From: a virus
IMG/VR virus record: IMGVR_UViG_3300037307_000289
Reading direction: 5' to 3' (one strand)
DNA: 64,000 nt
The notes beneath the pieces were generated by a model. It ran no database searches. It saw only the letters and a program-made list of their open reading frames with translations, and was not told the DNA's origin. The translations under genes were made by a program, and so were the position numbers. Below, one piece after another: positions 1 through 18,465 of the stretch. Within the stretch, counting starts at the first letter, position 1, and the number at the start of each line of letters is the position of its first letter.

Positions 1-168
1 TTCTATGACGAGGATATATCTAAGTTATGCCCTTGTCGAACTTGCATACTTAAATCTCGTTGTTCACAGGTATGTGAAGAAAGATGGAGTCTATATGCAT
101 ACAGGAATGAAACATATGAAGATTATATTAAAAGAGATAATGCCTGGAAGAGTACAAGAAGGAGATAA
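1..168 (+). CDS. 5'-truncated member of the Cys-rich CPC-CLVK mini-protein family (reads ...LCPCRTCILKSRCSQVCEE..., stop at 166-168)
   Basis: Frame 1 from the window edge gives FYDEDISKLCPCRTCILKSRCSQVCEERW..RRR*. This carries the family core C-P-C-x2-C-[IL]-L-K-x2-C-x3-C. The listed ORF 5..193 is in another frame and is probably spurious. Confidence 0.5.
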   Translation, partial: FYDEDISKLCPCRTCILKSRCSQVCEERWSLYAYRNETYEDYIKRDNAWKSTRRR

Positions 169-874
169 GATCTTTCTTTCTTTCTTTGGATAAGGTCCTG
201 GATTCATTATTAGTAAGATAAATGCAAAATCTTTTTTGAACTGAAAAATAGAACTTATCCACATCTCCAATATGATCTGGAAACCGAGCACGTACCTATA
301 CCATGTCTTTTCTTTATATGAGCACTACTTTGTCCTCTTCTGGACGCGCAGCATCTAATTTATTAAAATTTTAGACCGCCCCAAAAAGCGCTCATATGGT
401 GAAGGGAGGGGTCGCCCCTTATGCCCCTATATAACCCCTATACACTATATATATCAATAACTGCATAGAGACGATATCTTGGTCGCCGGATTGAAGGATC
501 CCCAACTGGCATGGACTGGGATAGTCGTCTGTATATGATTGGGATCCATCGGGGATGAAGGGCGCGCCTCATCCCTGCACCCCGGAGGGCGTCCGTGATT
601 ATGATGCCGGACGCCCTCCCCTTAACTATCTTCCAACTCAGTGCCCATCTTCATTTTTTAAAGGAGAGTGTTACATCATTATTAATAAGCTGACTACCCA
701 CAAAAACCGACTTCTAGTACCGAACGGGTTAGCGGCACTATTGAGTATCGGGCGGCATAAAGCTAAAGAGTTTGAGCTATATCCTCTACGGCCTGGAGGG
801 TTGTGCTCCTCATATGCTATTCAGTAAATGCTGATCAGATGCTTCATCAGAGGGTTCCCCGTTAGGGAATTCCC

Positions 875-910
875 AGGCGGGTTTTCTCCTTTCTCCCGCC
901 TGTTTTTTTT
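875..910 (+). terminator. rho-independent terminator: 7-bp GC stem aggcggg/cccgcct, 13-nt loop, then GTTTTTTTT
   Basis: Stem 875-881 pairs with 895-901. A T-tract at 902-910 follows. It closes the GC-rich structured island. Confidence 0.6.
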
Positions 911-983
911 GCTTAAATAGGATGCCGCCCTGGATACTAGATGAGGATGCTATCTATAGGATTTGGAACAAATAAAAAATAAA

Positions 984-1056
984 GTACAGTACAGTACAGT
1001 ACAGTACAGTACAGTACAGTACAGTACAGTACAGTACAGTACAGTACAGTACAGTA
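984..1056. repeat. perfect pentanucleotide microsatellite (GTACA)n, about 14.6 copies
   Basis: Direct reading shows gtaca/acagt reiterated without interruption. It ends 17 nt before the ATG of the 1073 ORF. Confidence 0.95.
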
Positions 1057-1072
1057 GAAAAGGAAGCAACCT

Positions 1073-1318
1073 ATGAAACGTGAAAAGATGGTATCTATAT
1101 ATTTCACTAAAGAAGAGCATGAAGCATTAATGAAGCATATCAATAAGAATACAAATGGATTCAGTCCTAGTGTATCAACATATGTGCGTTCTGTTATTCT
1201 TAAAATGATAAACTCTGAGAAACCCACCGAGACAGCTCCCCCTATAGCGCCCACAGAAAATAAACCAGAAGTCAAATCAAATCAAACGCTTAACTTAGGC
1301 GACCTCTTTAATTTATAA
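1073..1318 (+). CDS. small ribbon-helix-helix (CopG/MobC-like) DNA-binding protein, 81 aa
   Basis: The N-terminus KMVSIYFTKEEHEALMKHI matches the RHH beta-strand plus helix pattern (x-V-x-V-x-L-T-x-E-E-x-E-x-L). An RBS AAAGGAAG lies 8 nt upstream. Confidence 0.5.
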   Translation: MKREKMVSIYFTKEEHEALMKHINKNTNGFSPSVSTYVRSVILKMINSEKPTETAPPIAPTENKPEVKSNQTLNLGDLFNL

Positions 1319-1350
1319 CTAGATTCCGAGCATAATAGAACCAAAAAAAT

Positions 1351-1382
1351 AACCGGGAGAGAATATCCTGCGGTTATTTTTT
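1351..1382 (+). terminator. weak hairpin (aaccg..cggtt) followed by ATTTTTT
   Basis: A short imperfect stem is followed by a T-run just downstream of the RHH gene stop. Confidence 0.3.
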
Positions 1383-1531
1383 GACTGCTATGCCAGAGGG
1401 GAATCTTTCTCACTGGATTACTAGGGACAACCTCTCAGTTTCCATCTCAACTAGGTTGACTAAGTCCAGCTAGGAGTCCAATTTGTTATCTAAACGCACT
1501 AATATGCTATCTAAATGTTTCTACCCTCTCA

Positions 1532-1951
1532 TCATTTAAGATAACAAACTTCATCTAACACCCTGATATAGTTATTCATTAACCCGGGAAGCTTAATAAA
1601 CTTCTCTGGAGCTCTCTTCCCGCGTAAAATCCCTTTCTTTCTCTCACCTGCACGTTTTTCTATCTTATTATCTAACCTAACTAATATAGGATTGTTTCTA
1701 GCAATTAACCCTCTATAAACATCACATCTTATTTTATCTCTTTCGACATCCACTTCACGAATATAATTTGAACGATTATATGCTGCCTTTTCAAATTCTT
1801 CACATACTTGATCGCATGTCACTTTAACTAAGCATTTATGACATGGGCATTTTGGTAGTGTATAGCATCTGATACTTTGAATAGAAATACAATATGGTAC
1901 ATATTGACTGTTATATCTTAGTGATTTACAACCAATGCAAGCTTCAGACAT
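1532..1951 (-). CDS. CPC-CLVK family Cys-rich mini-protein with C-terminal extension (139 aa)
   Basis: N-terminal CIGCKSL; core KCPCHKCLVKVTCDQVC. Confidence 0.7.
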   Translation of the reverse strand: MSEACIGCKSLRYNSQYVPYCISIQSIRCYTLPKCPCHKCLVKVTCDQVCEEFEKAAYNRSNYIREVDVERDKIRCDVYRGLIARNNPILVRLDNKIEKRAGERKKGILRGKRAPEKFIKLPGLMNNYIRVLDEVCYLK

Positions 1952-2189
1952 TGTCTATCTTAGTTCCTTGTCTAACGTAATCTCTTATCATTATTAGTTT
2001 AAAGTTTTTATCATACTCTGGACAAGCATCTACACATACTCCTTTTATTAAACAAGTCATGCAAGGACATCTTGGTATTACTATTCCTTGTTCATCTTCT
2101 CTCATGTAATGCATACAATATAAAGAGGTCTCTGCACTTATGGTATTGGTATATGTTTTACATCCTTTACAACTTGTTTTCTCCATCAC
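1944..2189 (-). CDS. CPC-CLVK family Cys-rich mini-protein (81 aa)
   Basis: N-terminal CKGCKTY; core RCPCMTCLIKGVCVDAC. Confidence 0.7.
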   Translation of the reverse strand: MMEKTSCKGCKTYTNTISAETSLYCMHYMREDEQGIVIPRCPCMTCLIKGVCVDACPEYDKNFKLIMIRDYVRQGTKIDNV

Positions 2190-2399
2190 TTTTCTTTTTC
2201 CTTATTGATATTAGAAAATCCTCACATGCTACTTTACACATTGTCTTAACTAGACATGTATTACTTTAATGAATGGGACCATATGAATCTGCATAGTTGC
2301 AGTAAAATAGCTTGTTTCATATGCTTCCCTATTGCTTATTCTATCTTTACTTTCACACGGTTTACAATAAAAGATTTGGTTACAAATTGAGCATGGCAT
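2190..2399 (-). pseudogene. frameshifted family member: N-terminal MPCSICNQIFYCKPCES (49 aa) in one frame, NTCLVKTMCKVACEDF in another
   Basis: Manual translation of the minus strand. The ATG at 2397-2399 opens a 49-aa fragment with the MPCxxC..KPC N-terminus. The CLVK..C core continues in a -1/+2 frame behind a stop. The CPC triplet is absent. Confidence 0.45.
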
Positions 2400-2405
2400 A
2401 ACCTA

Positions 2406-2639
2406 TCAATCTCTCACTATTCTTTCAATGTAGTTTTCACATATATCTCTACACATTACCTTTACTAAGCAATTAACACAAGGGCACTTATAGTTTAATC
2501 TATATATTTTTCTTATCATTTTATCTGGGTAATAGTGATTTGATGTAGTTGAGTTTAATAAGATTTTTACTTTACCTCTTACTAATTTTGTATTACATGG
2601 TTTAACTTTGAAATGTTTATAACAGTGATTGCATGGCAT
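2406..2639 (-). CDS. CPC-CLVK family mini-protein, MPC subtype (77 aa)
   Basis: MPCNHCYKHFKVKPCN; KCPCVNCLVKVMCRDIC. Confidence 0.7.
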   Translation of the reverse strand: MPCNHCYKHFKVKPCNTKLVRGKVKILLNSTTSNHYYPDKMIRKIYRLNYKCPCVNCLVKVMCRDICENYIERIVRD

Positions 2640-2837
2640 TATAATTTCTCTTGTATTTTTTTAAATTCTTCGCACGCTCGTTCACACATGGACTTAACTA
2701 TGCACTTTCTACATGGGCAATCTGGTATTTTATCCCACATATAAAAAACTTTACAAGTTCCTACACATATTGATTCCTTTATTTCCAGCGCCTTCAAGAA
2801 TCTTTAAAGAGTGACAACCTTCACATTCATTATTCAT
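2639..2837 (-). pseudogene. frameshifted family member: MNNECEGCHSL.. (27 aa) then DCPCRKCIVKSMCERAC in the +1 frame
   Basis: Manual translation. The ATG overlaps the upstream gene's stop (ATGA). The N-terminal CEGC motif and the C-terminal CPC core lie in different frames with no in-frame ATG for the second half. Confidence 0.45.
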
Positions 2838-3112
2838 ATATCCTCTGGTTTAATTTGTCTGCAAAAGTGATACCAAGGAGAACATTGTAATCTCCCTTGT
2901 TCACACATCATTTTAACTAAGCAATCTTTACATGGGCATTCATCTCGTAACCTATAATATCTAGTTTCAAATGTTTCTTTAGTTAAACTCTTTAGAATAT
3001 ATCTTTCTGGTTCATGAGTATAAAACATATCTCCTTTTTTACCATTATAAGGAATACCACTACATGGTCTATTCTCATATACTAGATCACATATTTTACA
3101 AGGCATACCCAA
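2834..3112 (-). CDS. CPC-CLVK family mini-protein, MPC subtype (92 aa)
   Basis: MGMPCKICDLVYENRPC; ECPCKDCLVKMMC. Confidence 0.7.
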   Translation of the reverse strand: MGMPCKICDLVYENRPCSGIPYNGKKGDMFYTHEPERYILKSLTKETFETRYYRLRDECPCKDCLVKMMCEQGRLQCSPWYHFCRQIKPEDI

Positions 3113-3118
3113 TATCCC

Positions 3119-3361
3119 CTAATTAAATTTTAAACCTTCTACTTTAGATAGAAATTCTAAATACTCAGGGCAGTTTAATCTTTTATCTCCACATGCCATT
3201 TTAACCAAACAATTACTACATACACACTGTTCATTTAATAGATTAAAGTAGTTAGTTAGATATTTCTTATTATATATTTCACAAAGTTTATCTATCATTT
3301 TAATTTCTTTACTCTTACATGGGGGGTTCTCATACATTGACTCACAAATATTACAAGGCAC
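3119..3361 (-). CDS. CPC-CLVK family mini-protein, MPC subtype (80 aa)
   Basis: MPCNICESMYENPPC; CVCSNCLVKMAC. Confidence 0.7.
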   Translation of the reverse strand: MPCNICESMYENPPCKSKEIKMIDKLCEIYNKKYLTNYFNLLNEQCVCSNCLVKMACGDKRLNCPEYLEFLSKVEGLKFN

Positions 3362-3668
3362 GTTTTATCACTCTCCATTTACCATTAGAAATATTTTTAA
3401 TAGTAATCACTGAAGTTCCTATTCTTTTTCTCTCTCCGGCACTTAACCCTACAGTATAAGATTCTAATACATCTACTCTTCGTTTTAGATATTCTATAAA
3501 TGGCATACACATAGAGTTGCAGGTAACCTTAACTAAGCATTCTCTACATGGGCATGTTACCATAAACCTAATATATACATTGGTAAACTTACATGAGTTT
3601 AAATTATTTGAATCTTTTACTAGTGAGTTACATCCATTACATTCACTTATTCCTTCTGATCTATTCAT
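3351..3668 (-). CDS. CPC-CLVK family mini-protein (105 aa)
   Basis: CNGCNSL; TCPCRECLVKVTCNSMC. Confidence 0.7.
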   Translation of the reverse strand: MNRSEGISECNGCNSLVKDSNNLNSCKFTNVYIRFMVTCPCRECLVKVTCNSMCMPFIEYLKRRVDVLESYTVGLSAGERKRIGTSVITIKNISNGKWRVIKRAL

Positions 3669-3925
3669 CTTAGTAAAGGTCCTATTAAGAGGTCTTCGTC
3701 CTTAACATTAAGTACTCCATCATAGAATACCATTTTTACTTCTTCAATTTGTTTAGCTATTTCTTCACATCCTTTATGTGAATTACATATAGCTCTAACC
3801 AAACATTTTTTACATGGGCATTTAATTCTTATATCTATATATTTTTCTCTAACTACTTTATGTGCCTCAACAAATGAGCAAGGTCTAACACCAACATGTA
3901 TTCGTTTACACTCGTCACATATCAT
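3665..3925 (-). CDS. CPC-CLVK family mini-protein (86 aa)
   Basis: MICDECKRIH; KCPCKKCLVRAIC. Confidence 0.7.
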   Translation of the reverse strand: MICDECKRIHVGVRPCSFVEAHKVVREKYIDIRIKCPCKKCLVRAICNSHKGCEEIAKQIEEVKMVFYDGVLNVKDEDLLIGPLLR

Positions 3926-4173
3926 TATTTATTCCTTTGTTTGGTAAGCATTTTAATTATATAAGTTCTTTTAATTTTATCTTTATATATTCCTATCTGG
4001 TGTGCCTCATAAAATAAATCACATGGGGTGCTACAAACTGGTTTAACCAGACAATTTTGGCAAGGGCAATCAATGATTTTTTCTGGAACATTTTGGAATA
4101 CTATTTGTTTACATAATTCTTTTTTTAATGAATAGCTATATACAAATGAATTACACCCACTACATTTATTCAT
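3925..4173 (-). CDS. CPC-CLVK family mini-protein (82 aa)
   Basis: CSGCNSF; DCPCQNCLVKPVCSTPC. Confidence 0.7.
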   Translation of the reverse strand: MNKCSGCNSFVYSYSLKKELCKQIVFQNVPEKIIDCPCQNCLVKPVCSTPCDLFYEAHQIGIYKDKIKRTYIIKMLTKQRNK

Positions 4174-4433
4174 CTAGTCCTGACCCATGTTTCAATTCTA
4201 TTTTCAAACTCACCACAGAATTCTTGGCACATTACTTTAATAAGACATTCCTGGCAAGGGCAATATCCGTGTAGTATTCCGTGGATTGTAACTAATTTTC
4301 TACATCCATCATACCCTTGAGATGAATATGTTCTTTCAGTTAGAATAGTATCTGAACTTATTCTAAGTTCGCATGGTAAAATACTATAATATTCTTTACA
4401 TGTTTGACATGGCATTAGATCACCTTGAACCAC
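4170..4433 (-). CDS. CPC-CLVK family mini-protein, MPC subtype (87 aa)
   Basis: MPCQTCKEYYSILPC; YCPCQECLIKVMCQEFC. Confidence 0.7.
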   Translation of the reverse strand: MVQGDLMPCQTCKEYYSILPCELRISSDTILTERTYSSQGYDGCRKLVTIHGILHGYCPCQECLIKVMCQEFCGEFENRIETWVRTR

Positions 4434-4780
4434 AGTTTACATTCATAATCAATTGTTAACTCAGTTCCTTTCTTTATATCATTCAAAGCGTATGCTCTCA
4501 TTAGTTTATTTCTATAGTCTCGTTTTATTCTAACATTAGAATTGTTACTATGATTTAATAGATTTATAGCTCCGAATGAAATAGCATCTTGTTTTTTAGT
4601 CCAATACATAGGATAGTTATTAAAAAATGACTCTTTTTTTACATCATTAAATCCTATTGGTGACACAGCATTAATAACTATTAGCTCATCTTTTTTAATA
4701 TTCTGTGCTGCAACTATACAAAATCCTTTTTTATTGTGAAGTGAAATTTCTATTTTTCCGTCACTGAAAAGTTTTTTCAT
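4415..4780 (-). CDS. minimal SET-domain protein lysine methyltransferase (vSET-like, 121 aa)
   Basis: AISFGAINLLNHSNNSNVR matches the SET NHS(C)xPN pocket motif. KGTELTIDYECKLW matches the E-E-L-T-x-D-Y post-SET motif. Size and layout resemble chlorovirus vSET (119 aa). Recalled from memory, not searched. Confidence 0.75.
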   Translation of the reverse strand: MKKLFSDGKIEISLHNKKGFCIVAAQNIKKDELIVINAVSPIGFNDVKKESFFNNYPMYWTKKQDAISFGAINLLNHSNNSNVRIKRDYRNKLMRAYALNDIKKGTELTIDYECKLWFKVI

Positions 4781-4967
4781 TTTTCTCTCCGAAGAAATAT
4801 TTTGTTTCTATTTCAATTGCACTATCTAATACATCACATGGCTCACTACACATTCCTTTTATAAGACAGATTTTACAGGCGCAATCTTTTATAAGTTTTT
4901 CTAACCTATAACATTTGTTTCTAATGTTATAGTAATAGCATCCTTGACATCCATCAAACTTGTCCAC
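4761..4967 (-). CDS. CPC-CLVK family mini-protein (68 aa)
   Basis: DGCQGC; DCACKICLIKGMCSEPC. Confidence 0.7.
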   Translation of the reverse strand: MDKFDGCQGCYYYNIRNKCYRLEKLIKDCACKICLIKGMCSEPCDVLDSAIEIETKYFFGEKNEKTFQ

Positions 4968-5187
4968 TTTTCTTAGTCCTTGCAGTAATTATTTTAAAGT
5001 TATCACAAGCTGTAATACAAATACCTTTAATAAGACAAGTATTGCATGGGCAAGATTCAATCTCAATAACATCTAGATAAAAAGGATATAGTGATTTACA
5101 ATAATATCTTTTTTTATTTTCATGGTATGCTAAAGATTTACACCCTTCACATTTTTCGGTGTTCATAGGCTGCCTTTTGTAATTCAC
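4954..5187 (-). CDS. CPC-CLVK family mini-protein (77 aa)
   Basis: CEGCKSL; SCPCNTCLIKGICITAC. Confidence 0.7.
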   Translation of the reverse strand: MNYKRQPMNTEKCEGCKSLAYHENKKRYYCKSLYPFYLDVIEIESCPCNTCLIKGICITACDNFKIITARTKKSGQV

Positions 5188-5398
5188 TACATCTTTGTGT
5201 ACATATACCTTTAACTAAGCATTTTCCACAAGGGCAATCTTTAATAAATGATTTTCCCCATATTGCATAGACACATTCTAATATTCTTTTATTTTTCCTA
5301 TCTATCATTACTAGTTTACCTAAATTTTTACATCCTCTACAATGCTTTGGGAAGTTTATATTTCTACATTTGGATTCACTCATTTTAGAAATCATCAT
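5147..5398 (-). CDS. CPC-CLVK family mini-protein (83 aa)
   Basis: CRGCKNL; DCPCGKCLVKGICTQRC. Confidence 0.7.
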   Translation of the reverse strand: MMISKMSESKCRNINFPKHCRGCKNLGKLVMIDRKNKRILECVYAIWGKSFIKDCPCGKCLVKGICTQRCSELQKAAYEHRKM

Positions 5399-5576
5399 CT
5401 ATATCTCTGGTAATGTGATGAAACTTATCGCACCCTTCTTCGCAGACAACTTTAATTAAACAATCTCTGCATGGGCACTCTTGCGCTTTAAACATTTCTA
5501 ATACTTTACAATCTATACCCATATGAAACATAGTACATCCTTCGCAGTCTTTTAGGTATCTCTGTACATGTGTCAT
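5385..5576 (-). CDS. CPC-CLVK family mini-protein (63 aa)
   Basis: CEGCTMF; ECPCRDCLIKVVCEEGC. Confidence 0.7.
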   Translation of the reverse strand: MTHVQRYLKDCEGCTMFHMGIDCKVLEMFKAQECPCRDCLIKVVCEEGCDKFHHITRDIDDDF

Positions 5577-5773
5577 AATAAATTTTCTCTAACTCCTTTC
5601 TTTATTAGTTCATCATATTCTTCACAAGTATTTGTACATACCATCTTTAATAGACATATTTGACATGGGCATTCTTCTGCTTTAACTATACATAATATTT
5701 TGCATCCAACTTGATATTTAACTTCCTGTTCCCCATAGATAAAACACAGTTCACATTCTTTATTGTAATTCAT
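5573..5773 (-). CDS. CPC-CLVK family mini-protein (66 aa)
   Basis: CELCFIY; ECPCQICLLKMVCTNTC. Confidence 0.7.
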   Translation of the reverse strand: MNYNKECELCFIYGEQEVKYQVGCKILCIVKAEECPCQICLLKMVCTNTCEEYDELIKKGVRENLL

Positions 5774-6033
5774 TTTAATCCAACCACTTGTTTATACTCT
5801 TCACACATTTGATCTATTTTACTTGAACAGCACTGCATCTTAACTAAACAGTTTTTGCATGGGCAATATGCATTAAGTTTTTTATATGCCTGAACATAAG
5901 ATGGAATATCAATTATATTGTAGGGTACACTAGTTATATATTTACTGAAAATACCAATAGTAACAGAAGCTTCATCTCGTGGATAATCACATGGACTAAT
6001 CTTAAGAGTATTTTGACAAACTAAACATGGCAT
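5770..6033 (-). CDS. CPC-CLVK family mini-protein, MPC subtype (87 aa)
   Basis: MPCLVCQNTLKISPC; YCPCKNCLVKMQCC. Confidence 0.7.
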   Translation of the reverse strand: MPCLVCQNTLKISPCDYPRDEASVTIGIFSKYITSVPYNIIDIPSYVQAYKKLNAYCPCKNCLVKMQCCSSKIDQMCEEYKQVVGLK

Positions 6034-6036
6034 TGG

Positions 6037-6270
6037 TCACACATGAAATTTTAGAGTCATTCTTTTTATCGCGTTAGTTATTTCAGTTTCAAAGTTTTCT
6101 AAATCTTCACATCTAGCTTGGCAAACTCCTTTTATAATACATTTCTTACATGGGCAATCCTTATATCTAGCTCCTAATGCACAGCATTTTGTATTGAGTT
6201 TTGGGTTGTTAGAGAGACACCCATCACATCCTTCGTAATTTTTCAAGGAGTTTTTCAGTTCTATACGCAT
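6037..6270 (-). CDS. CPC-CLVK family mini-protein (77 aa)
   Basis: YEGCDGC; DCPCKKCIIKGVCQARC. Confidence 0.7.
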   Translation of the reverse strand: MRIELKNSLKNYEGCDGCLSNNPKLNTKCCALGARYKDCPCKKCIIKGVCQARCEDLENFETEITNAIKRMTLKFHV

Positions 6271-6502
6271 CAGTTTCCCTTTTCATTATCATTTCTCTTC
6301 TGTGAAGAAAAAACTCACTGCATTTTTTATTACATGTTACCTTAACTAAACAATCTTTACATACACAGTTAGGAATAAAGTTTAGATCAGATATATTGAA
6401 TAGACATTTATAGTAACCAGGAATCTCTCCGTTATCAACAAATGATCTACACCCTTTACATACTACTAGTTCAGGTTTGTATTCTGATTTGGTGTTCTTC
6501 AT
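6224..6502 (-). CDS. CPC-CLVK family mini-protein (92 aa)
   Basis: CKGCRSF; NCVCKDCLVKVTCNKKC. Confidence 0.65.
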   Translation of the reverse strand: MKNTKSEYKPELVVCKGCRSFVDNGEIPGYYKCLFNISDLNFIPNCVCKDCLVKVTCNKKCSEFFLHRREMIMKRETDAYRTEKLLEKLRRM

Positions 6503-6807
6503 GATCTAAATTTTTCTTTTATTTTTTTAATACCATTATCCTGTAACTTAATAAATACTCTATTTGATGCTAATAGTTCTATATTTAAATATTTTTCACA
6601 TGAAAACACCGAAGGTGGGATACATGACATCTTAACTAAACAATCAATACAAGGGCATTTAACCATCAATATTCTATAAAGTTCTTCAGCAAAATCAAGA
6701 GTTGAATTACCTATAGTTTTATCTACTACCTTATAATTTTCTATAAAATCTAGATTTGTTTTACATGGTTTAATAATATAGTTATCTTGACAAATTTGAC
6801 ATGGCAT
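6499..6807 (-). CDS. CPC-CLVK family mini-protein, MPC subtype (102 aa)
   Basis: MPCQICQDNYIIKPC; KCPCIDCLVKMSC. Confidence 0.7.
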   Translation of the reverse strand: MPCQICQDNYIIKPCKTNLDFIENYKVVDKTIGNSTLDFAEELYRILMVKCPCIDCLVKMSCIPPSVFSCEKYLNIELLASNRVFIKLQDNGIKKIKEKFRS

Positions 6808-7097
6808 TAATTTATTTTACTCCCTTTTACTGTATTTTCAAGAAAATCTTTGTATTTACTACATTTATATTTTGAATAATCACATACTATTTTAACTAGA
6901 CATTCTCTACATGGGCAATCTTTATAAGATTCAGTATAAAATGAAGAAACAAAATCAATCACTTTAGATTTCTTTCCTCTTTTACTAACAAAAAATGTTC
7001 TTTCTTTTATATTCTTAATTCCAGATGGTTCTATTTTTCCTTCTATACTTTCACATGGCTTAACATAAAATACATTTATACAACCTTGGCATGGCAT
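6807..7097 (-). CDS. CPC-CLVK family mini-protein, MPC subtype (96 aa)
   Basis: MPCQGCINVFYVKPC; DCPCRECLVKIVC. Confidence 0.7.
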   Translation of the reverse strand: MPCQGCINVFYVKPCESIEGKIEPSGIKNIKERTFFVSKRGKKSKVIDFVSSFYTESYKDCPCRECLVKIVCDYSKYKCSKYKDFLENTVKGSKIN

Positions 7098-7099
7098 TA

Positions 7100-7306
7100 T
7101 TATCCTCCTGCTAACTCAAACAGTTTTTCTGTCAGTAATTTTTCATCTATATAGAATTTAACTTGTTGCAAAACAAAAATATATTCTTTACAATACTCAC
7201 TACAATTAATTTTTACTAAACAATTTTTACAAGGGCACAATAATTTATTTTGTTTCAGATTGCCTTTAAGAGAGCATATTGTTTCTATTTTGCATCCTTT
7301 ACATAT
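7100..7306 (-). pseudogene. family member lacking a canonical ATG: NICKGCKIETIC...LLCPCKNCLVKINCSEYC...*
   Basis: Manual minus-strand translation of the apparent gap between 7097 and 7299. The open frame holds both family motifs, but the first in-frame sense codon is ATA where other members have ATG. Either a non-canonical start or an inactivated copy. Confidence 0.4.
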
Positions 7307-7622
7307 ATTTCCTCAATTCTTTCTTAGAAAACATTCCAGTAATTTCATCATAATAGAGAACTAAATAACGTTCTATTATATTTCTATATTCTTCACATCT
7401 CTTAGGATATTCTACATTACATGTTGCTTTTACTAAACAATTTCTACATGGGCAGTTGAAATGTAAATCCTTATATACTTTAGTATGAAACACGATAGCA
7501 TTATCACTGTATAATATTGGTCTGAACTCTTTTATTTTTGTAACATCTTTCTCTATTAATATTCCAGTTTCATGTTCACATGGTCTAACTGTATAACTTA
7601 TATCACACGCTGGGCATGGCAT
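7299..7622 (-). CDS. CPC-CLVK family mini-protein, MPC subtype (107 aa)
   Basis: MPCPACDISYTVRPC; NCPCRNCLVKATC. Confidence 0.7.
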   Translation of the reverse strand: MPCPACDISYTVRPCEHETGILIEKDVTKIKEFRPILYSDNAIVFHTKVYKDLHFNCPCRNCLVKATCNVEYPKRCEEYRNIIERYLVLYYDEITGMFSKKELRKYM

Positions 7623-7624
7623 CT

Positions 7625-7897
7625 TTACACCTTAAAGACTGTTTTTAAAACTTCAATTGCTGTCATCCAAGTTGTTCCACTCATAGATGGTTTTAATATT
7701 AATTCTATATAATCTTCACATAAATTATCAGTTTTACACATACTTTTCACTAAACAATCTTTACAAGGGCATGCCTTATTTAATTTTGAGAATGAAAATC
7801 TTACAAATGAATAAGAAACTTGAGGAGTAAAAAGTTTACCACTCTTATATTCACAAGGTTTAAAATTATAAAAATGATCGCAAAATATACAAGGCAT
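7625..7897 (-). CDS. CPC-CLVK family mini-protein, MPC subtype (90 aa)
   Basis: MPCIFCDHFYNFKPC; ACPCKDCLVKSMC. Confidence 0.7.
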   Translation of the reverse strand: MPCIFCDHFYNFKPCEYKSGKLFTPQVSYSFVRFSFSKLNKACPCKDCLVKSMCKTDNLCEDYIELILKPSMSGTTWMTAIEVLKTVFKV

Positions 7898-7905
7898 CGT
7901 TACAC

Positions 7906-8127
7906 CTATTCCTCGTCGTAAACTAGCTTTGATCTAAAATAATTTTCTAGAACATCACAATTATTTTCCTGTGTACAAATCATTTTAACTAAACATGTTC
8001 TACATGGGCATTCAGCTACAAATCTTTTGAATCCTCTCACTGAAAACTTCTCTAATATCTCTTGATCTGTATATTCATGGCACTGTTTTGTATTATCAAA
8101 TCTTAATGCACATTTAACACAGCTCAT
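7906..8127 (-). CDS. CPC-CLVK family mini-protein (73 aa)
   Basis: MSCVKCALRF; ECPCRTCLVKMIC. Confidence 0.7.
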   Translation of the reverse strand: MSCVKCALRFDNTKQCHEYTDQEILEKFSVRGFKRFVAECPCRTCLVKMICTQENNCDVLENYFRSKLVYDEE

Positions 8128-8384
8128 TTCTTTCCTTTCTTAATTAGATCTAGTTCATCAATTAAGATCCAGTTAAATTCAATAGAGAATTGTTTAGTTT
8201 CTATCTTACTTTTAGAGTCTTGGAACAACTTCCGGAATTCGCCTCTCCAGAAGTTGTCCCTCCTCTCTATATATTCATGACAAGAATCAGAACACATAAC
8301 TTTAACTACACAATACATGCAAGGGCAGTTATCTAACGGCGGGCACTTTTCTATTTTTAAACATCCCTGACATTGCTCTTTCAT
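8124..8384 (-). CDS. CPC-CLVK family mini-protein (86 aa)
   Basis: CQGCLKIEKC; NCPCMYCVVKVMCSDSC. Confidence 0.65.
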   Translation of the reverse strand: MKEQCQGCLKIEKCPPLDNCPCMYCVVKVMCSDSCHEYIERRDNFWRGEFRKLFQDSKSKIETKQFSIEFNWILIDELDLIKKGKK

Positions 8385-8583
8385 TTTTTAACTGCTCCCT
8401 CAGTCTTATTCTATGAAATTCATCACAATATTCTTCACATGTTACTTTAACTATGCAATTTTTACATGGACACTTTAACATATCTTTATATTGTATGTAG
8501 CATTTAGAAACTCTAGCTTCAGTTATACACCCTTTACAAGTCTTTCTGAATCTAGGTTTTGTTTTTTTCTTTCCAGACTTCAT
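8329..8583 (-). CDS. CPC-CLVK family mini-protein (84 aa)
   Basis: CKGCITE; KCPCKNCIVKVTCEEYC. Confidence 0.65.
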   Translation of the reverse strand: MKSGKKKTKPRFRKTCKGCITEARVSKCYIQYKDMLKCPCKNCIVKVTCEEYCDEFHRIRLREQLKNERAMSGMFKNRKVPAVR

Positions 8584-8749
8584 TTATTTCCTTCAATGAG
8601 TAGTAGTATTTTTCACAATCTCTATCACATGTAACTTTGACTAGACATAATCTACAGACGCATACCTCAATACCTTCATTAAATACGTAGAACACTCTAC
8701 ATAGTTTTTTCTTTTTATTGTATTTTCTACACCCAAGACAGTCGTTCAT
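8552..8749 (-). CDS. CPC-CLVK family mini-protein (65 aa)
   Basis: CLGCRKY; CVCRLCLVKVTCDRDC. Confidence 0.65.
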   Translation of the reverse strand: MNDCLGCRKYNKKKKLCRVFYVFNEGIEVCVCRLCLVKVTCDRDCEKYYYSLKEINEVWKEKNKT

Positions 8750-9936
8750 TCTTTCATTGATATTACTGGTTTTATTCTGTCAATTATTTCTGCAGTTGGG
8801 TCTATTGCTGCTTCAATTACTTTAGGATCTTTATATGCACCCTTTAATTCATCAGTTGGTAACCTGGAAAAATAGATTCCTTTCTCTTTCATACGGTCGC
8901 TTGCTTCTTTATTAGATAGATTCTCATTAGCCCATTTTCTTGAACCTATACGGCCAGCGCCATGAGGGGCAGAATAGTTCCATTCTCGATTACTTTTACC
9001 TTTACATAGAAGTATTCCGTCCTCCATATTAAATGGAATAATAATTTCCTGATCTTTATATGCAGAGATTGCACCTTTTCTAATAATAAAATCTCTAAAA
9101 TCAACATAGTTATGAACTGAACTAACAATTCTATTTGATACTATACTTTTATTAAGTTCTTTCTTTAATACTTTCATAATTTCTTCCATCATGACTATTC
9201 TATTTACTAGTGCATATGTTTGAGCAATCAGAAGATCAACTAGATAATCAAACATATCTGCTCCCTCTAAATATGACAGAGGATGTTTTCCAGCTTTCTT
9301 CTGATGATAATTTGCACTTTTCAATCCATATTGTCTTGACCCTGAATGAATTGTAATCCAGGTATTCCCAGTAGTTTGTGATTCACCAACTTCAATAAAA
9401 TGATTTCCACCACCAAGAGTTCCTAATGATTTAACTACCCTGTCATAAGCTATACCAAACTTATCACATCTTTCTTTTATAGAATCAACACTTATAAATG
9501 GGGTTATATGTTTAGTTTGAAACTTACTATCATATTTTTCAGTGAATGTGACTAACTGAGGATTTACTAATGCTAAAAGTAATCCTATTCTATATTCAAT
9601 AAAATCCTTATTTACATCTGTACCAAACGGTATAACACTACGGATTAACCCGTCTATGCGCTCAGGAGAGAGATCTTTAAGTGTGCCTTGTCCTATATCA
9701 AATGATAACATTCCACATCCCTTATCGACTCCTATTACGTTTGGGATCACCTTGTTAGGCAACTCCATTGTAAATCCAATGACAGCTCCCTTTCCTGCAT
9801 GAGTATCAGGCATAATTGAAACTGGATTTGTAAATGCTTCATGACTAATAAACTCATATATTTGTTTCATTGTTTCTTCATCAATATTATCAATCAATAC
9901 TAAAGCAGTTGTGTATTTGCCTCTTACTTTAAACAT
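8746..9936 (-). CDS. rtcB: RtcB-family RNA 3'-phosphate/tRNA-splicing ligase (396 aa)
   Basis: Signature RtcB motifs are present: IMPDTHAGKG, GVDKGCGM, GGGNHFIEV and a C-terminal HNYV. Length is typical for the family. Confidence 0.9.
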   Translation of the reverse strand: MFKVRGKYTTALVLIDNIDEETMKQIYEFISHEAFTNPVSIMPDTHAGKGAVIGFTMELPNKVIPNVIGVDKGCGMLSFDIGQGTLKDLSPERIDGLIRSVIPFGTDVNKDFIEYRIGLLLALVNPQLVTFTEKYDSKFQTKHITPFISVDSIKERCDKFGIAYDRVVKSLGTLGGGNHFIEVGESQTTGNTWITIHSGSRQYGLKSANYHQKKAGKHPLSYLEGADMFDYLVDLLIAQTYALVNRIVMMEEIMKVLKKELNKSIVSNRIVSSVHNYVDFRDFIIRKGAISAYKDQEIIIPFNMEDGILLCKGKSNREWNYSAPHGAGRIGSRKWANENLSNKEASDRMKEKGIYFSRLPTDELKGAYKDPKVIEAAIDPTAEIIDRIKPVISMKE

Positions 9937-10196
9937 TACTTTCCTCTCTTTCTTCTTTTTATACTGATATAAGTAACATCGTTTAGAGTTAAATCTTTGT
10001 GCATCTTCCCCATTTTATCCTTTTCTTTACATCTATTCTTACACATTGGTTTGACCACACATGTTTTACATGGGCAATCTTTAAAATATTTCTTAATCAT
10101 CCAACATGCAACTAATAATTCTCCTATAGACCACAGATCTGGGATCTTACATCCTGAGCATTCTTTGTTTGGATTTATTTTTAAGTTCTGCCGCAT
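9936..10196 (-). CDS. CPC-CLVK family mini-protein (86 aa)
   Basis: CSGCKIP; DCPCKTCVVKPMCKNRC. Confidence 0.7.
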   Translation of the reverse strand: MRQNLKINPNKECSGCKIPDLWSIGELLVACWMIKKYFKDCPCKTCVVKPMCKNRCKEKDKMGKMHKDLTLNDVTYISIKRRKRGK

Positions 10197-10389
10197 ATCC
10201 TATTGGGTTACTCCTTAGAAATCTAAAGTCATCACACGAAACATCACACATAGTAATAATCAAACATTTTATACATGGGCATATAGGTCTATTTTCTTTT
10301 GATACCGGGCAAAGTTTGGTTCCATTAGTTTTTATTTGTTGAATATAAGCGGAACAACTTTTACACTCTTCCAGAAATGAACTTTCCAT
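10147..10389 (-). CDS. CPC-CLVK family mini-protein, divergent core (80 aa); first gene of the leftward array
   Basis: CKSCSAY; ICPCIKCLIITMCDVSC. Confidence 0.65.
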   Translation of the reverse strand: MESSFLEECKSCSAYIQQIKTNGTKLCPVSKENRPICPCIKCLIITMCDVSCDDFRFLRSNPIGYAAELKNKSKQRMLRM

Positions 10390-10416
10390 TTAATAACCTC
10401 ACACATGTATTTATAT

Positions 10417-10434
10417 GGGATCATTTATGATCCC
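10417..10434. promoter_or_regulatory. perfect 18-bp palindrome GGGATCATTTATGATCCC in the divergent intergenic region
   Basis: 8-bp arms with a 2-bp centre lie between the start of the minus-strand array (10389) and the plus-strand ORF. Candidate operator. Confidence 0.3.
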
Positions 10435-10511
10435 TTCGAGAAGTCTATTTGAACTATATATATTAATATTTGAAATCATTGAATTTAACTCTAACTTTAG
10501 GAGGGATAACT

Positions 10512-10841
10512 ATGTTTAAAGCTTTCGATTTGGGAAAACCGTCAGATATTTCTATCTGTGGAAAGTGTAGATTTATTAACAAAAATACCTGTATGAATCC
10601 ATTTTCGTTTTCCTTTCAGAGCAGGGTTCTCGACGGGTATATTTCCTGCACGAAGTTCAGCAGAAGACCTGAGGAAAAACAGGATTGCTCTAAGTGTCAT
10701 CTGGGGGGAGACTGTCCGATGACTCCAGATACCTGTCCCGGAGCAATCGACAAGAAACAGGTTGAGATGGTTATGCAGGACAGCTCTCCGATGGGGGAAA
10801 TACTCAGGTCTATCCTACTTGACTTGAAGCCGAATCGGTAG
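10512..10841 (+). CDS. Cys-rich hypothetical protein (about 109 aa from the internal Met), GC-richer than its surroundings
   Basis: A strong RBS AGGAGGG lies 6 nt before the internal ATG at 10512 (MFKAFDLGKPSD..). The track ORF starts at 10470 without an RBS. Multiple Cys (CGKC, CSKCHLGGDCP). Codon GC is visibly higher than in neighbouring genes. Confidence 0.4.
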   Translation: MFKAFDLGKPSDISICGKCRFINKNTCMNPFSFSFQSRVLDGYISCTKFSRRPEEKQDCSKCHLGGDCPMTPDTCPGAIDKKQVEMVMQDSSPMGEILRSILLDLKPNR

Positions 10842-10849
10842 GAAATCAG

Positions 10850-10876
10850 GGAGTAAGGACTAGAAATCCTTACTCC
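10850..10876. other. perfect 10-bp stem hairpin (ggagtaagga / tccttactcc, 7-nt loop) between convergent genes
   Basis: Read directly, immediately after the TAG stop at 10839-10841. No U-tract on either strand. Confidence 0.4.
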
Positions 10877-10886
10877 ATGACAAGTA

Positions 10887-11210
10887 TTAGTGAAATGATA
10901 AATAATCTCTTGGTGGGAATTCCCTTTCAATGAAAGGATTCTCTATTAATAAACAAATACCATCAGTATTTTTTCCTTGTTCTTTCAATCTTTTTATAAT
11001 TTCTTTTAGGGTTGGTTCATAGTTTGATCTAAAGTAAGAACAATCCCCAACAATTTTTTTTGCTATTGAATGATTATGATAAGAAGATTCCCCAGTCATT
11101 TTTTCTTGCTCATATCTAGCTCTACAACATGGAAAAGTTATACAACTTCTACATAAACAATCTGGATCTTTTCTAGCACCCAAGAAATACCTCGCAATAG
11201 TTTTTACCAA
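10887..11210 (-). CDS. hypothetical Cys-containing protein (107 aa)
   Basis: ORF only. CLCRSC..PCC motif. No family recognised. Confidence 0.4.
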   Translation of the reverse strand: MVKTIARYFLGARKDPDCLCRSCITFPCCRARYEQEKMTGESSYHNHSIAKKIVGDCSYFRSNYEPTLKEIIKRLKEQGKNTDGICLLIENPFIEREFPPRDYLSFH

Positions 11211-11511
11211 AGTCTGTTAAGGTAATATCTCCATCCATATTAACTTCAATCATTCTCTTAAGTTTTAATGTCCCTAATACAATTTCAAGTTGTTTTGGTC
11301 TCCAATCCAAAGTAGCTAACAAAACATCGTCAGCAATAGCACCAGTCTTTTTGCACTGCTCATAAATAGCTTTTAATGCTTTAGCTTCGTTTGGTTCAGC
11401 TTGACCATCTTCACATACTTTCTTGGTTCTCCTGTTCAACCAAGTAATGAATCCTATAACCAAAATTAAAAAAATACCACCTATAACTAACAACAATACT
11501 GCCTCTGCCAT
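11173..11511 (-). CDS. hypothetical membrane-anchored protein (112 aa), N-terminal TM helix
   Basis: The N-terminal hydrophobic segment LLLVIGGIFLILVIGFITWL is followed by a soluble domain. Confidence 0.45.
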   Translation of the reverse strand: MAEAVLLLVIGGIFLILVIGFITWLNRRTKKVCEDGQAEPNEAKALKAIYEQCKKTGAIADDVLLATLDWRPKQLEIVLGTLKLKRMIEVNMDGDITLTDFGKNYCEVFLGC

Positions 11512-11521
11512 TGTTCCTCCT

Positions 11522-11785
11522 TCACGGATAGAAGTTTAGTTGCTTGTCTAATTCTGAGTTCACTTTGATTATTTCAAATAATGTTAGTGAATCTTTTTTT
11601 GTTACACCACAATAAGGACATTCAAAATCTGATTTTAAAGCAGTTAAACCTTTTTGAATAGCTAGCTCAAAAAATATTCCACAGTTTGGGCATCTCAATA
11701 CAATTTTATACTGATTAGGTCCAACCTCGACTGTTTTGAATAATCTATTCTTTGATGCTGCGGGAGGTCTTCCAGACGGGCTCAT
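11522..11785 (-). CDS. zinc-ribbon hypothetical protein (87 aa)
   Basis: CPNC..(x19)..CPYC pair. Confidence 0.45.
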   Translation of the reverse strand: MSPSGRPPAASKNRLFKTVEVGPNQYKIVLRCPNCGIFFELAIQKGLTALKSDFECPYCGVTKKDSLTLFEIIKVNSELDKQLNFYP

Positions 11786-11844
11786 CTTTCTCCTTTCGAT
11801 TTGAAAAAATAAGTTCTCTTCTTCAAATATTAATATATATAGTT

Positions 11845-12345
11845 CTATTCAACCAAACCATCATCAACTGCCATACTATAAGCTACTGATAATGGAGTCA
11901 TTGCACCGAGATGATATTCGTCTCTTGCAATATTTGATCCAACAAAACGACAATCCTTATCATGCCCATATCTCGCTATCAACAGTATATTATCAACTGG
12001 AGCGAGAGAACTTCTGTAATACATATCATAGACATCCGGGCCAACCTCTGTGGTGCCTAAGAAGTTCAGGGAAGGTTCTGGATTAAAATAACATTGTATT
12101 CCTGCTTCTATTAAGCTTTCATCTTCAAAGATTTTAAACTTACACTTTGGAAAATAAATATCAGGGAGTTCAGGAAATTCTATTTTTAATTCCTTTTTAA
12201 TAATTTCATTTGTTTCTCTTATAATAATGTATTTGCTTAAAGGATCCCAAATTTGAGTCATATATATTTCAACTTTTTCTTGAACGGATTCTAGTAAATA
12301 GTCTCTAGCTTTAATAAATAAACTAACAAGTTCTTCATCATCCAT
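11845..12345 (-). CDS. hypothetical acidic protein (166 aa)
   Basis: ORF with consistent AT-rich codon usage in the operon context. Confidence 0.45.
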   Translation of the reverse strand: MDDEELVSLFIKARDYLLESVQEKVEIYMTQIWDPLSKYIIIRETNEIIKKELKIEFPELPDIYFPKCKFKIFEDESLIEAGIQCYFNPEPSLNFLGTTEVGPDVYDMYYRSSLAPVDNILLIARYGHDKDCRFVGSNIARDEYHLGAMTPLSVAYSMAVDDGLVE

Positions 12346-12399
12346 TGCTATATCTCCGTCAATGGTAGGATTAGAGGGAGGGTTTCCCCTCCCTCATAA

Positions 12400-12879: not shown

Positions 12880-12903
12880 TGTTTCCTGTTCCTTTCTTAT
12901 TAG

Positions 12904-13410: not shown

Positions 13411-13411
13411 T

Positions 13412-14740: not shown

Positions 14741-14756
14741 ATACTAAACCTTTCAT

Positions 14757-15209: not shown

Positions 15210-15239
15210 TTTTAGATTCCTCTTTTAATAAATTAGTTA

Positions 15240-16224: not shown

Positions 16225-16225
16225 A

Positions 16226-18453: not shown

Positions 18454-18465
18454 TTTTAGTTCCTC

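What the first reader, a model, noticed from the sequence alone, without database searches (positions are those of the whole stretch)
4415..4780. vSET-like minimal SET methyltransferase embedded in the array
The 121-aa protein has the SET pocket motif (..FGAINLLNHSNNSNVR..) and the post-SET E-L-T-I-D-Y block. It is essentially a bare SET domain like chlorovirus vSET, which methylates H3K27. In a prokaryote-virus context the target could be a host nucleoid protein, ribosomal protein or virion protein. Its insertion in the middle of the Cys-rich gene array suggests the array is an accessory hotspot.
Basis: partly seen in the sequence, partly recalled or inferred. Interest (0 to 1): 0.55.

Follow-up and report, generated by a model that had tools for sequence, protein, structure and literature searches.

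The report
Phage-borne minimal SET lysine methyltransferase
A 121-residue gene in this phage genome encodes a genuine stand-alone SET-domain enzyme, the type that methylates lysines on proteins; this is rare but already recorded phage cargo, its closest relatives are in ultra-small (Patescibacteria) bacteria and other uncultured phages, and its target is unknown.

Summary
The ORF at 4415-4780 (minus strand, 121 aa) is real and is a SET domain. It scores 50 bits on Pfam PF00856 (cutoff 22.4). An AlphaFold model (pLDDT 81) superposes on chlorovirus vSET (TM 0.89) and S. pombe Set7. All positions invariant across 150 bare SET proteins are kept: G19, Y56, G70, N76-H77, E107, catalytic Y112 and W117. 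The second Gly of motif I is Cys, a trait of a small subfamily of 13 proteins.

That subfamily occurs in Patescibacteria chromosomes (58% identity, in a variable region), in a probably archaeal contig, and in several unrelated phage-like contigs, so it is mobile cargo.

In the window the gene has its own Shine-Dalgarno and overlaps both neighbouring genes. It sits inside a one-directional array of 29 Cys-rich mini-protein genes, which also contains an RtcB ligase.

The target was not determined. A conserved host protein is the best guess. The co-encoded mini-proteins, which carry an invariant Lys, are a weaker rival: 12 other subfamily loci lack them.

Bare SET genes already occur in about 20 deposited phage genomes, none characterised. 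Verdict: a real gene, a new member of a known kind, of moderate interest.

The parts
4415..4780 (-). SET-domain protein gene, 121 aa (ATG 4780-4778, TAA 4417-4415)
   Evidence: ORF list; Pfam PF00856 E=4.5e-13; AF2 model pLDDT 81.4 with SET-fold matches
4785..4790 (-). Shine-Dalgarno GGAGAG, 4 nt upstream of the ATG
   Evidence: read directly from the sequence
4718..4729 (-). motif I, K18-G19-F20-C21 (GxG with the second Gly replaced by Cys)
   Evidence: G19 conserved in 130 of 137 other bare SETs; position 21 is Gly in 129 of 137 others but Cys in 11 of the 12 subfamily members that cover this position
4601..4615 (-). Y56-P-M-Y-W60; Y56 aligns with vSET Y50 and is Tyr in 146 of 150 bare SETs
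   Evidence: alignments
4547..4564 (-). motif III, N73-L-L-N76-H77-S78 (the NHS motif)
   Evidence: N76 and H77 conserved in essentially all 150 sequences
4445..4462 (-). motif IV, E107-L-T-I-D-Y112, with the catalytic Tyr
   Evidence: Y112 aligns with vSET Y105; Y105 is named as the catalytic residue in PMC3914023
4427..4441 (-). C-terminal cap C114-K-L-W-F118; LWF is family-wide, C114 is subfamily-specific
   Evidence: this segment is low-confidence in the model (pLDDT <50 for residues 115-121)
4413..4417 (-). TAATG stop/start overlap with the downstream mini-protein gene (4170-4415)
   Evidence: sequence; gene calls on the identical contig L005
4761..4967 (-). upstream Cys-rich mini-protein gene, overlapping the SET start by 20 nt
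1532..10389 (-). context: one-directional array of 29 mini-protein genes with the C-x-C-x-x-C-[LIV]-[LIV]-K motif; SET and RtcB (8746-9936) are embedded in it
   Evidence: motif scan; alignment A4 with 8 invariant Cys and K in at least 90% of sequences; RtcB by Pfam and NCBIfam

Best explanation
The gene encodes an active, stand-alone, SAM-dependent SET-domain protein-lysine N-methyltransferase. This tailed phage carries it as an accessory gene. Shown here: the ORF and its ribosome-binding site; its tight packing (overlaps on both sides) within a one-directional block of mini-protein genes, so it is most likely co-transcribed and translationally coupled with them; the SET fold; and retention of every family-invariant active-site position. 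Inferred from established SET enzymology: SAM sits between the motif I strand (K18-G19-F20-C21), N76-H77 and the C-terminal LWF cap. The substrate lysine enters a narrow channel lined by Y56 and Y112, and Y112 aligns the epsilon-amine for direct methyl transfer. The protein probably acts as a homodimer, as vSET does. It belongs to a small mobile subfamily with the signature G-x-C ... Y-P-M-x-W ... N-L-L-N-H ... Y-x-C-x-L-W-F. That subfamily moves between Patescibacteria chromosomes (in flexible regions), a probably archaeal genome, and phages of very different GC content. The subfamily therefore works in cells and in phages that lack this phage's mini-proteins. For that reason the most likely substrate is a widely conserved, abundant host protein, either a nucleic-acid-binding or nucleoid protein or a component of the translation machinery, modified during infection to help host takeover. 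The substrate step is inference only.
For: SET identity: Pfam 50 bits. PDB sequence hits to Set7 and vSET. AF2 pLDDT 81.4. Foldseek to Set7 TMq 0.82 and to vSET TMt 0.89 at rmsd 2.2 A, followed by MLL1, SET8 and ASH1L. Active site: G19, Y56, G70, N76, H77, E107, Y112 and W117 all match positions conserved in 130-137 of 137 other bare SETs, except W117 (122 of 137). Purifying selection at subfamily level: 26 invariant columns among 6 proteins only 45-58% identical. Expression: SD, overlaps, no minus-strand terminator in the array, and promoter-like sites at chance level (65 found, 64.8 expected). Phage identity of the window: collagen-repeat and other tail-fibre PHROG hits down to 1e-64. Mobility of the subfamily: P0002 (58% identity) lies between DnaE and a Pif1 helicase on a 146-kb contig whose ThrRS is 81% identical to Minisyncoccia and about 70% to Paceibacterota and Nomurabacteria. 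A relative with 92%-identical ThrRS lacks SET at that spot. P0159 (53%) lies between a lytic transglycosylase and L31/RF-1/S2/EF-Ts. L117 (51%) lies beside an EF-Tu-type GTPase and an HD protein. L121 has SET directly after a sigma-70-like gene in a DnaB/primase/CobT module. P0160 lies near an ATP-dependent DNA ligase. Precedent for nucleoid targets: Go1-SET methylates MC1-alpha and cpnSET methylates Hc1 (PMC3980110).
Against: No substrate was identified. There is no cross-lineage conserved neighbour among 80 genome loci, and none within the subfamily. Motif I has Cys where nearly all SETs have Gly, so SAM binding is not guaranteed. The C-terminal cap is poorly modelled. The strains give no selection signal: there are no differences at all in the SET gene. 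Related phages L106 and L107/L108 carry a different SET subtype within about 30 bp to 1.7 kb of a mini-protein gene, which keeps a functional link to the mini-proteins open. The Patescibacteria host assignment rests on one gene's homology only.
Confidence: 0.55

Rival explanations
1. SET is a tailoring enzyme for the co-encoded Cys-rich mini-proteins. It would methylate the nearly invariant Lys that follows the C-P-C-x-x-C-[LIV]-[LIV] motif, so the array plus SET would form a self-contained modification system.
For: 29 of 31 mini-proteins in the window have Lys at that position, and it is the only nearly invariant non-Cys residue. SET is translationally coupled to mini-protein genes on both sides. 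Three other viral contigs with such a mini-protein (L106, L107, L108) carry a SET of another subtype about 30 bp to 1.7 kb away.
Against: Twelve other loci that encode a member of this SET subfamily contain no such mini-protein, including two cellular chromosomes. A 25-gene array in L111 has no SET in the 11.5 kb fetched. The neighbouring radical-SAM/SPASM-like genes, which suggested a RiPP-type cluster, are conserved in L102 together with tail-module genes and without mini-proteins or SET. L106-L108 may be related phages, so the co-occurrence may reflect shared ancestry.
Confidence: 0.13
2. SET methylates the phage's own structural or other proteins, for example the lysine-rich collagen-like tail fibres, to stabilise them or mask them from host proteases or defences.
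For: The gene lies on the same strand as a long structural block that includes very large tail-fibre genes, and downstream of it.
Against: Subfamily members sit in replication or regulation modules (L121) and in cellular chromosomes, not next to structural genes. There is no conserved linkage to any structural gene.
Confidence: 0.08
3. The protein has lost or changed its catalytic function. It might be a SAM sensor or binder, or a decoy that binds a lysine-containing host protein, because motif I is G-x-C and not G-x-G.
For: Position 21 is Gly in 129 of 137 other bare SETs.
Against: Cys21 is conserved in 11 of the 12 subfamily members that cover this position, while N76, H77, Y56, E107 and Y112 all remain invariant. 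That pattern is expected for an active enzyme variant, not for decay. In SET enzymes motif I contacts SAM mainly through the main chain (general knowledge of the family, not tested here).
Confidence: 0.08

Closest known systems
vSET (A612L) of Paramecium bursaria chlorella virus 1, an H3K27 methyltransferase (PDB 1n3j, 3kma, 2g46)
   Same: A virus-encoded bare SET domain of about 120 aa with no pre-SET or Zn-binding post-SET region. It has the same fold (TMt 0.89, rmsd 2.2 A). The NHS motif and the catalytic Tyr (Y105 = Y112 here) align.
   Different: Identity is only 22% and E=6.6e-4, so they are not orthologs. vSET has the canonical G-x-G motif. Its substrate, histone H3, does not exist in the likely hosts here. 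It comes from a eukaryotic virus. Dimerisation could not be tested here.
S. pombe Set7 (PDB 5h6z)
   Same: It is the best sequence hit (E=2e-9) and the best structural hit (TMq 0.82) among solved structures. It shares the Y-x-x-Y-W motif, the NH motif and the C-terminal LWF cap.
   Different: It is a eukaryotic histone methyltransferase, has canonical G-x-G, and is 27% identical.
Prokaryotic stand-alone SET proteins, e.g. Methanosarcina mazei Go1-SET (methylates MC1-alpha) and Chlamydia cpnSET (methylates Hc1)
   Same: The window protein belongs to the same very large family of 120-140-aa bare SETs: 6,398 representatives at E<=1e-3. Methanosarcina loci match at 31-32% over residues 18-120. These enzymes methylate endogenous nucleoid proteins (PMC3980110).
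   Different: The window protein belongs to a separate subfamily of 13 proteins set apart by a score gap of 124 to 67 bits, with G-x-C, Y-P-M-x-W, N-L-L-N-H and Y-x-C. That the matched Methanosarcina loci are orthologs of Go1-SET is my inference and was not checked.
SET-domain proteins already annotated in tailed phages (uncultured Caudovirales A0A6J5L8Y2 and others; Lak megaphages; Stenotrophomonas phages Ps15 ORF62 and Yut2; Caudoviricetes MW202744)
   Same: They are phage-encoded bare SETs of unknown function. A0A6J5L8Y2 is the top BFVD fold hit (E=4.4e-9). A typical family member finds about 20 of 50,697 deposited phage records.
   Different: None is detectably similar to the window protein by tblastn at E<=1e-3. 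Most are in huge phages. None sits in a mini-protein array.

Membership tests
SET domain (Pfam PF00856) | Profile score above the curated gathering threshold over the whole domain | tested here: met
   50 bits against 22.4; residues 19-112 cover model positions 1-104 of 105
SET domain (Pfam PF00856) | Motif III N-H-S and motif IV E-L-x-x-D-Y with the catalytic Tyr | tested here: met
   N76-H77-S78 and E107-L-T-I-D-Y112. These positions are conserved in 135-137 of 137 other bare SETs and align with vSET N69-H70 and Y105
SET domain (Pfam PF00856) | Motif I G-x-G (SAM-binding strand) | tested here: inconclusive
   G19 is present. The second Gly is Cys21, as in 11 of the 12 subfamily members that cover this position, against Gly in 129 of 137 others. 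The effect on SAM binding is unknown.
SET domain (Pfam PF00856) | SET beta-fold | tested here: met
   AF2 pLDDT 81.4 and pTM 0.75. All top 50 PDB Foldseek hits are SET enzymes. The pseudoknot itself was not inspected.
SET domain (Pfam PF00856) | SAM-dependent lysine methyl transfer | not testable with these tools
   Requires a biochemical assay
vSET type (chlorovirus A612L) | Bare SET of about 120 aa with no pre-SET or Cys-rich post-SET Zn cluster | tested here: met
   121 aa. The Pfam domain spans residues 19-112. The NHS motif lacks the Zn-ligand Cys, and only one Cys follows Y112
vSET type (chlorovirus A612L) | Close sequence relationship (orthology) to chlorovirus vSET | tested here: not met
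   22% identity and E=6.6e-4. The protein is closer to Set7 (E=2e-9) and to prokaryotic and phage SETs at 45-58% identity
vSET type (chlorovirus A612L) | Functional homodimer; H3K27 specificity through the A-P-A motif | not testable with these tools
   These features are described in PMC3914023. No multimer or substrate modelling was available.
Prokaryotic stand-alone SET family (C-terminal L-W-F cap) | Single-domain protein of 120-140 aa with conserved Y56, G70, N-H, E-x-T-x-x-Y and a terminal L-W-F | tested here: met
   The profile search finds 6,398 representatives. All of these positions are present in the query.
RiPP-type cluster (radical-SAM/SPASM maturase + precursor peptides + tailoring methyltransferase) | Maturase, precursors and tailoring enzyme stay linked in related elements | tested here: not met
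   L102 keeps both rSAM genes (38% and 49% identity) with tail-module genes, but has no mini-proteins and no SET. Twelve loci of the SET subfamily have no mini-proteins. The rSAM hits are far below the NCBIfam cutoffs (51 bits against 340).

The most novel reading that the evidence does not exclude
The SET enzyme methylates the nearly invariant lysine of the phage's hyper-expanded family of eight-cysteine mini-proteins (at least 40 paralogs). This would be a phage-encoded post-translational modification system acting on its own effector repertoire, and a second SET subtype would have been recruited for the same purpose in related phages (L106-L108).
Probability: 0.12. Interest if true: 0.7.

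Novelty: new member of a known kind. Interest (0 to 1): 0.35.

Why it matters
No phage-encoded SET methyltransferase has been characterised in the literature I could search, so any defined substrate would be the first example of a bacteriophage using protein-lysine methylation on its host or on itself. This subfamily is shared between Patescibacteria (CPR) chromosomes, a probable archaeon and several uncultured phages. It is therefore a compact 121-aa marker of gene flow between ultra-small cells and their viruses, and a possible clue to this phage's host. The enzyme is small, soluble-looking and easy to synthesise, so the methylation assay is directly feasible. As it stands, though, this is a well-understood domain in a rare but previously annotated setting.

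Tried and rejected
(1) Direct similarity to deposited phages: megablast of window 1-20000 and tblastn of the SET protein against INPHARED both found nothing. NCBIfam had no hit, and PHROGs gave only phrog_4001 at E=0.0062.

(2) RiPP-cluster reading: the two radical-SAM proteins match peptide maturases best (PapB, SCIFF, cyclophane types). In the related viral contig L102, however, they travel with tail-module genes and without mini-proteins or SET, so I rejected them as part of a SET/array system.

(3) Guilt by association: clustering 949 neighbour ORFs around 80 genomic bare-SET loci gave only within-lineage synteny (Chitinophagaceae, Asgard archaea).

(4) Within-population selection: SET has zero nucleotide differences in strains L007 and L008, so this was uninformative.

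(5) Naming the organisms from exact-sequence cluster names gave only '[bacterium]'. The lineage of L001 came from ThrRS homologs instead. The lineage of L095/L096 stayed undetermined.

(6) PHROG scan of neighbours in L020, L097, L100 and L101: almost no hits, so these contexts stay unassigned.

(7) AF2 of a mini-protein with 27 paralogs gave pLDDT 62.6 and pTM 0.41, too poor for a fold search.

(8) The 125-bp element shared with L107/L108 shows no significant RNA structure (z-scores 1.09 and 0.19) and has no Rfam hit.

(9) A literature search for the sample codes gave nothing usable.

(10) The search for related loci with the mini-protein alignment failed because no stretch was conserved enough. 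A degenerate DNA pattern was used instead.

Full report
**The observation**

The window carries an ATG-to-TAA ORF of 121 codons at 4415-4780 on the minus strand. GGAGAG lies 4 nt upstream of the ATG. The stop overlaps the start of the next gene (TAATG), and the preceding gene overlaps the SET start by 20 nt. The array has no terminator-like site on the minus strand, and promoter-like sites occur at chance frequency (65 found, 64.8 expected). The gene therefore looks like one cistron of a long co-transcribed, translationally coupled block. The identical protein is encoded on seven other metagenomic contigs. These are strains 98-100% identical to the window.

**What it is**

- Pfam PF00856 (SET) matches at E=4.5e-13 and 50 bits against a cutoff of 22.4, over essentially the whole model.
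- Among solved structures, the best sequence hits are S. pombe Set7 (5h6z, E=2e-9) and chlorovirus vSET (1n3j, E=6.6e-4).
- An AlphaFold2 model built on eight homologs has mean pLDDT 81.4 and pTM 0.75. Only the last seven residues are unreliable.
- Foldseek against the PDB returns only SET enzymes: Set7 (TMq 0.82), vSET 3kma (TMt 0.89, rmsd 2.2 A), P. falciparum PFL0690c, then MLL1, SET8 and ASH1L.

The query keeps every position that is nearly invariant across them: G19, Y56, G70, N76, H77, E107, Y112 and W117. Y112 aligns with vSET Y105, which the literature names as the residue that aligns SAM and the substrate lysine (PMC3914023). The one departure is motif I, where the sequence is G-F-C and not G-x-G.

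**The subfamily**

A profile search of 1.84 billion representatives finds 6,398 relatives at E<=1e-3. Stand-alone SETs of 120-140 aa are thus a very large, mostly prokaryotic family. The top genome hits are in Patescibacteria, Bacillaceae, Methanosarcina, Chitinophagaceae and Asgard archaea.

Within this family the window protein belongs to a sharply separated group of 13 proteins. Scores are at least 124 bits inside the group and drop to 67 bits outside it. The shared signature is K-G-[FWY]-C, Y-P-M-x-W, [IV]-N-L-L-N-H and Y-x-C-x-L-W-F. Cys21 and Cys114 are specific to the group and conserved within it, while all catalytic positions stay invariant. This pattern fits an active enzyme variant better than decay.

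**Where the subfamily lives**

- P0002 (58% identity) lies between DnaE and a Pif1-type helicase on a 146-kb contig. That contig's ThrRS is 81% identical to a Minisyncoccia protein and about 70% to Paceibacterota, Nomurabacteria and Taylorbacteria proteins, so it is a Patescibacteria chromosome.
- A relative whose ThrRS is 92% identical keeps the DnaE-ThrRS synteny. In place of SET and Pif1 it has an AAA_5 ATPase and a retroelement. The cellular SET copy therefore lies in the flexible genome.
- P0159 (53%) lies between a lytic transglycosylase and L31/RF-1/S2/EF-Ts on a cellular contig.
- L117 (51%) lies beside an EF-Tu-type GTPase and an HD protein. By eye the GTPase resembles archaeal aIF2-gamma; that is my reading and was not tested.
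- L121 (GC 52%) has DnaB, primase, an intein-containing AAA_5 ATPase, CobT-VWA, a sigma-70-like factor and then SET, which is a phage replication and regulation module.
- L119 (GC 58%) has a serine recombinase nearby.
- P0160 sits by an ATP-dependent DNA ligase, and P0003 sits after a NADAR protein.
- The other contexts are ORFan-dense and remain unassigned.

The subfamily is therefore mobile cargo shared by cells and phages of very different base composition. The direction of transfer cannot be decided. The SET genes are more AT-rich than their surroundings both in the phage (27% against 33%) and in the cells (30% against 39%, and 32% against 35%).

**The element in the window**

The window is a tailed phage.

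- It has collagen-repeat and other tail-fibre proteins, with PHROG E-values down to 1e-64.
- Minus-strand ORFs are nearly continuous from about 52 kb down to 1.5 kb.
- It has no tRNAs, and GC is 33%.

SET sits among 29 minus-strand genes for 46-139-aa proteins that share eight invariant Cys and a nearly invariant Lys (C-x-x-C ... C ... C-P-C-x-x-C-L-V-K-x-x-C ... C). An RtcB RNA ligase is also embedded in the array. Ten of these mini-proteins have no Pfam match.

**Mechanism and target**

The catalytic mechanism follows from the family and was not tested here. SAM binds between motif I, N76-H77 and the C-terminal cap. The substrate lysine enters a channel lined by Y56 and Y112, and the methyl group is transferred directly.

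The substrate is the open question. I considered the mini-proteins because of their invariant Lys and the tight coupling of their genes to SET. I also considered them because the two downstream radical-SAM proteins match RiPP maturases best. Two tests weaken this reading.

- In the related viral contig L102, both radical-SAM genes are conserved next to tail-module homologs, with no mini-proteins and no SET.
- Twelve other loci that encode a subfamily member contain no mini-protein.

One result works the other way. Three viral contigs found through the mini-protein DNA motif (L106, L107, L108) carry a different subtype of bare SET, with Pfam E=1e-11 and 2e-9, about 30 bp to 1.7 kb from a mini-protein gene. 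This may reflect common ancestry of these phages, which share a 125-bp DNA segment and collagen repeats with the window. I could not exclude a functional link.

The subfamily functions in Patescibacteria, probably in an archaeon, and in unrelated phages. A widely conserved host protein is therefore the most economical target. Characterised prokaryotic bare SETs methylate nucleoid proteins: MC1-alpha and Hc1 (PMC3980110). Two of the three cellular contexts are beside translation genes, which is only a hint. Neighbour clustering over 80 genomic loci gave no cross-lineage partner.

**Comparison with known systems, and novelty**

In architecture and fold the protein is vSET-like, but it is not a vSET ortholog. 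It is a member of the prokaryotic stand-alone SET family and closest to S. pombe Set7 among solved structures.

Phage-encoded SETs are rare but already on record.

- The top BFVD fold hit is a 'SET domain containing protein' of an uncultured Caudovirales phage.
- A typical family member finds 20 of 50,697 deposited phage records, mostly Lak and other huge phages plus Stenotrophomonas phage Yut2 and a Vibrio phage.
- One Caudoviricetes record is annotated by similarity to vSET.
- Stenotrophomonas phage Ps15 ORF62 is listed as a SET protein of unknown function (PMC9025141).
- I found no functional study of any of these.

**Verdict**

It is a new member of a known kind, belonging to a previously undescribed subfamily with a G-x-C motif I. 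Interest is moderate.

Noticed in passing
window 1532-10389 (-), plus 56891-57109 (+) and 62667-62948 (+); L006 5328-9773: The window holds 31 paralogous mini-proteins (46-139 aa) with eight invariant Cys and a nearly invariant Lys (CxxC...C...CPCxxCLVKxxC...C). Nine more lie beyond the window's start on the same phage. Ten tested have no Pfam match, and an AF2 model was too poor to classify (pLDDT 62.6).
   Followed up: partly
window 13412-14740 (-) and 16226-17584 (-): Two radical-SAM proteins match peptide-modifying rSAM/SPASM maturases best (PapB ranthipeptide, SCIFF, cyclophane types), but far below the curated cutoffs. In viral contig L102 both are conserved (49% and 38% identity) next to tail-module homologs, which suggests a role tied to structural proteins and not to the array.
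   Followed up: partly
window 8746-9936 (-): A 396-aa RtcB-family RNA ligase is embedded in the mini-protein array. It is a second non-array enzyme gene in the same block as SET and possibly an RNA-repair counter-defence function.
   Followed up: no
L106 8276-8896 (-); L107 8670-9026 (-); L108 about 7376-7633 (-): Other viral contigs with GC about 33% carry a different subtype of bare SET (HGLGAF...LNHSTNPNA...EITLDY; Pfam E=2e-9 and 1e-11). In L106 it lies about 30 bp from a divergently oriented CPCxxCLVK mini-protein gene; in L107 the nearest strict-motif mini-protein gene is about 1.7 kb away.
   Followed up: partly
L111 3750-10664 (-) (IMGVR_UViG_3300037468_000575, 89 kb): A second phage has a 25-gene array of the same mini-protein family, near a terminase-like gene. 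The array is interrupted by 1.7 kb of unrelated small ORFs (4601-6240). No SET is present in the fetched 11.5 kb.
   Followed up: partly
window 199-323: A 125-bp segment is 89% identical to L107 13431-13555 and L108 12091-12215, although these phages share almost no other DNA with the window. It has no Rfam hit and no significant RNA fold. It could be a conserved regulatory or terminus element.
   Followed up: partly
window 983-1056: A perfect pentanucleotide tandem repeat, (AGTAC) x 14.8, lies just beyond the distal end of the array.
   Followed up: no
window 60413-62089 (+): A 558-aa protein has a weak N-terminal protein-kinase match (Pfam Pkinase 6e-8) and a faint hit to the MADS defence-system kinase MAD6. 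It could be a second host-protein-modifying enzyme in this phage.
   Followed up: no
window 35015-39262 (-) and 39358-46371 (-): There are two very large tail-fibre-like proteins: one of 1,415 aa with seven collagen triple-helix stretches, and one of 2,337 aa. A 608-aa SPFH/Band-7 protein lies at 52952-54778 (+).
   Followed up: no
window 1532-3112 compared with L007 and L008: Strains that are 98-99% identical differ mainly by indels or replacements of mini-protein genes at the distal end of the array, including a roughly 325-bp deletion in L007. SET and RtcB are identical in all of them. Gene turnover in the array is therefore ongoing.
   Followed up: partly
L113 1150-2493: In a Patescibacteria relative of the P0002 genome, the slot beside DnaE holds a reverse transcriptase (RVT_1) with a bAvd accessory protein, which looks like a diversity-generating retroelement, together with an AAA_5 ATPase. 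It does not hold SET and Pif1.
   Followed up: no
L121 3288-5150 and 7438-8327: In a phage-like contig the subfamily SET directly follows, and overlaps, a sigma-70-like gene. Upstream is an AAA_5 ATPase interrupted by an intein with an HNH endonuclease, followed by a CobT-VWA protein.
   Followed up: no
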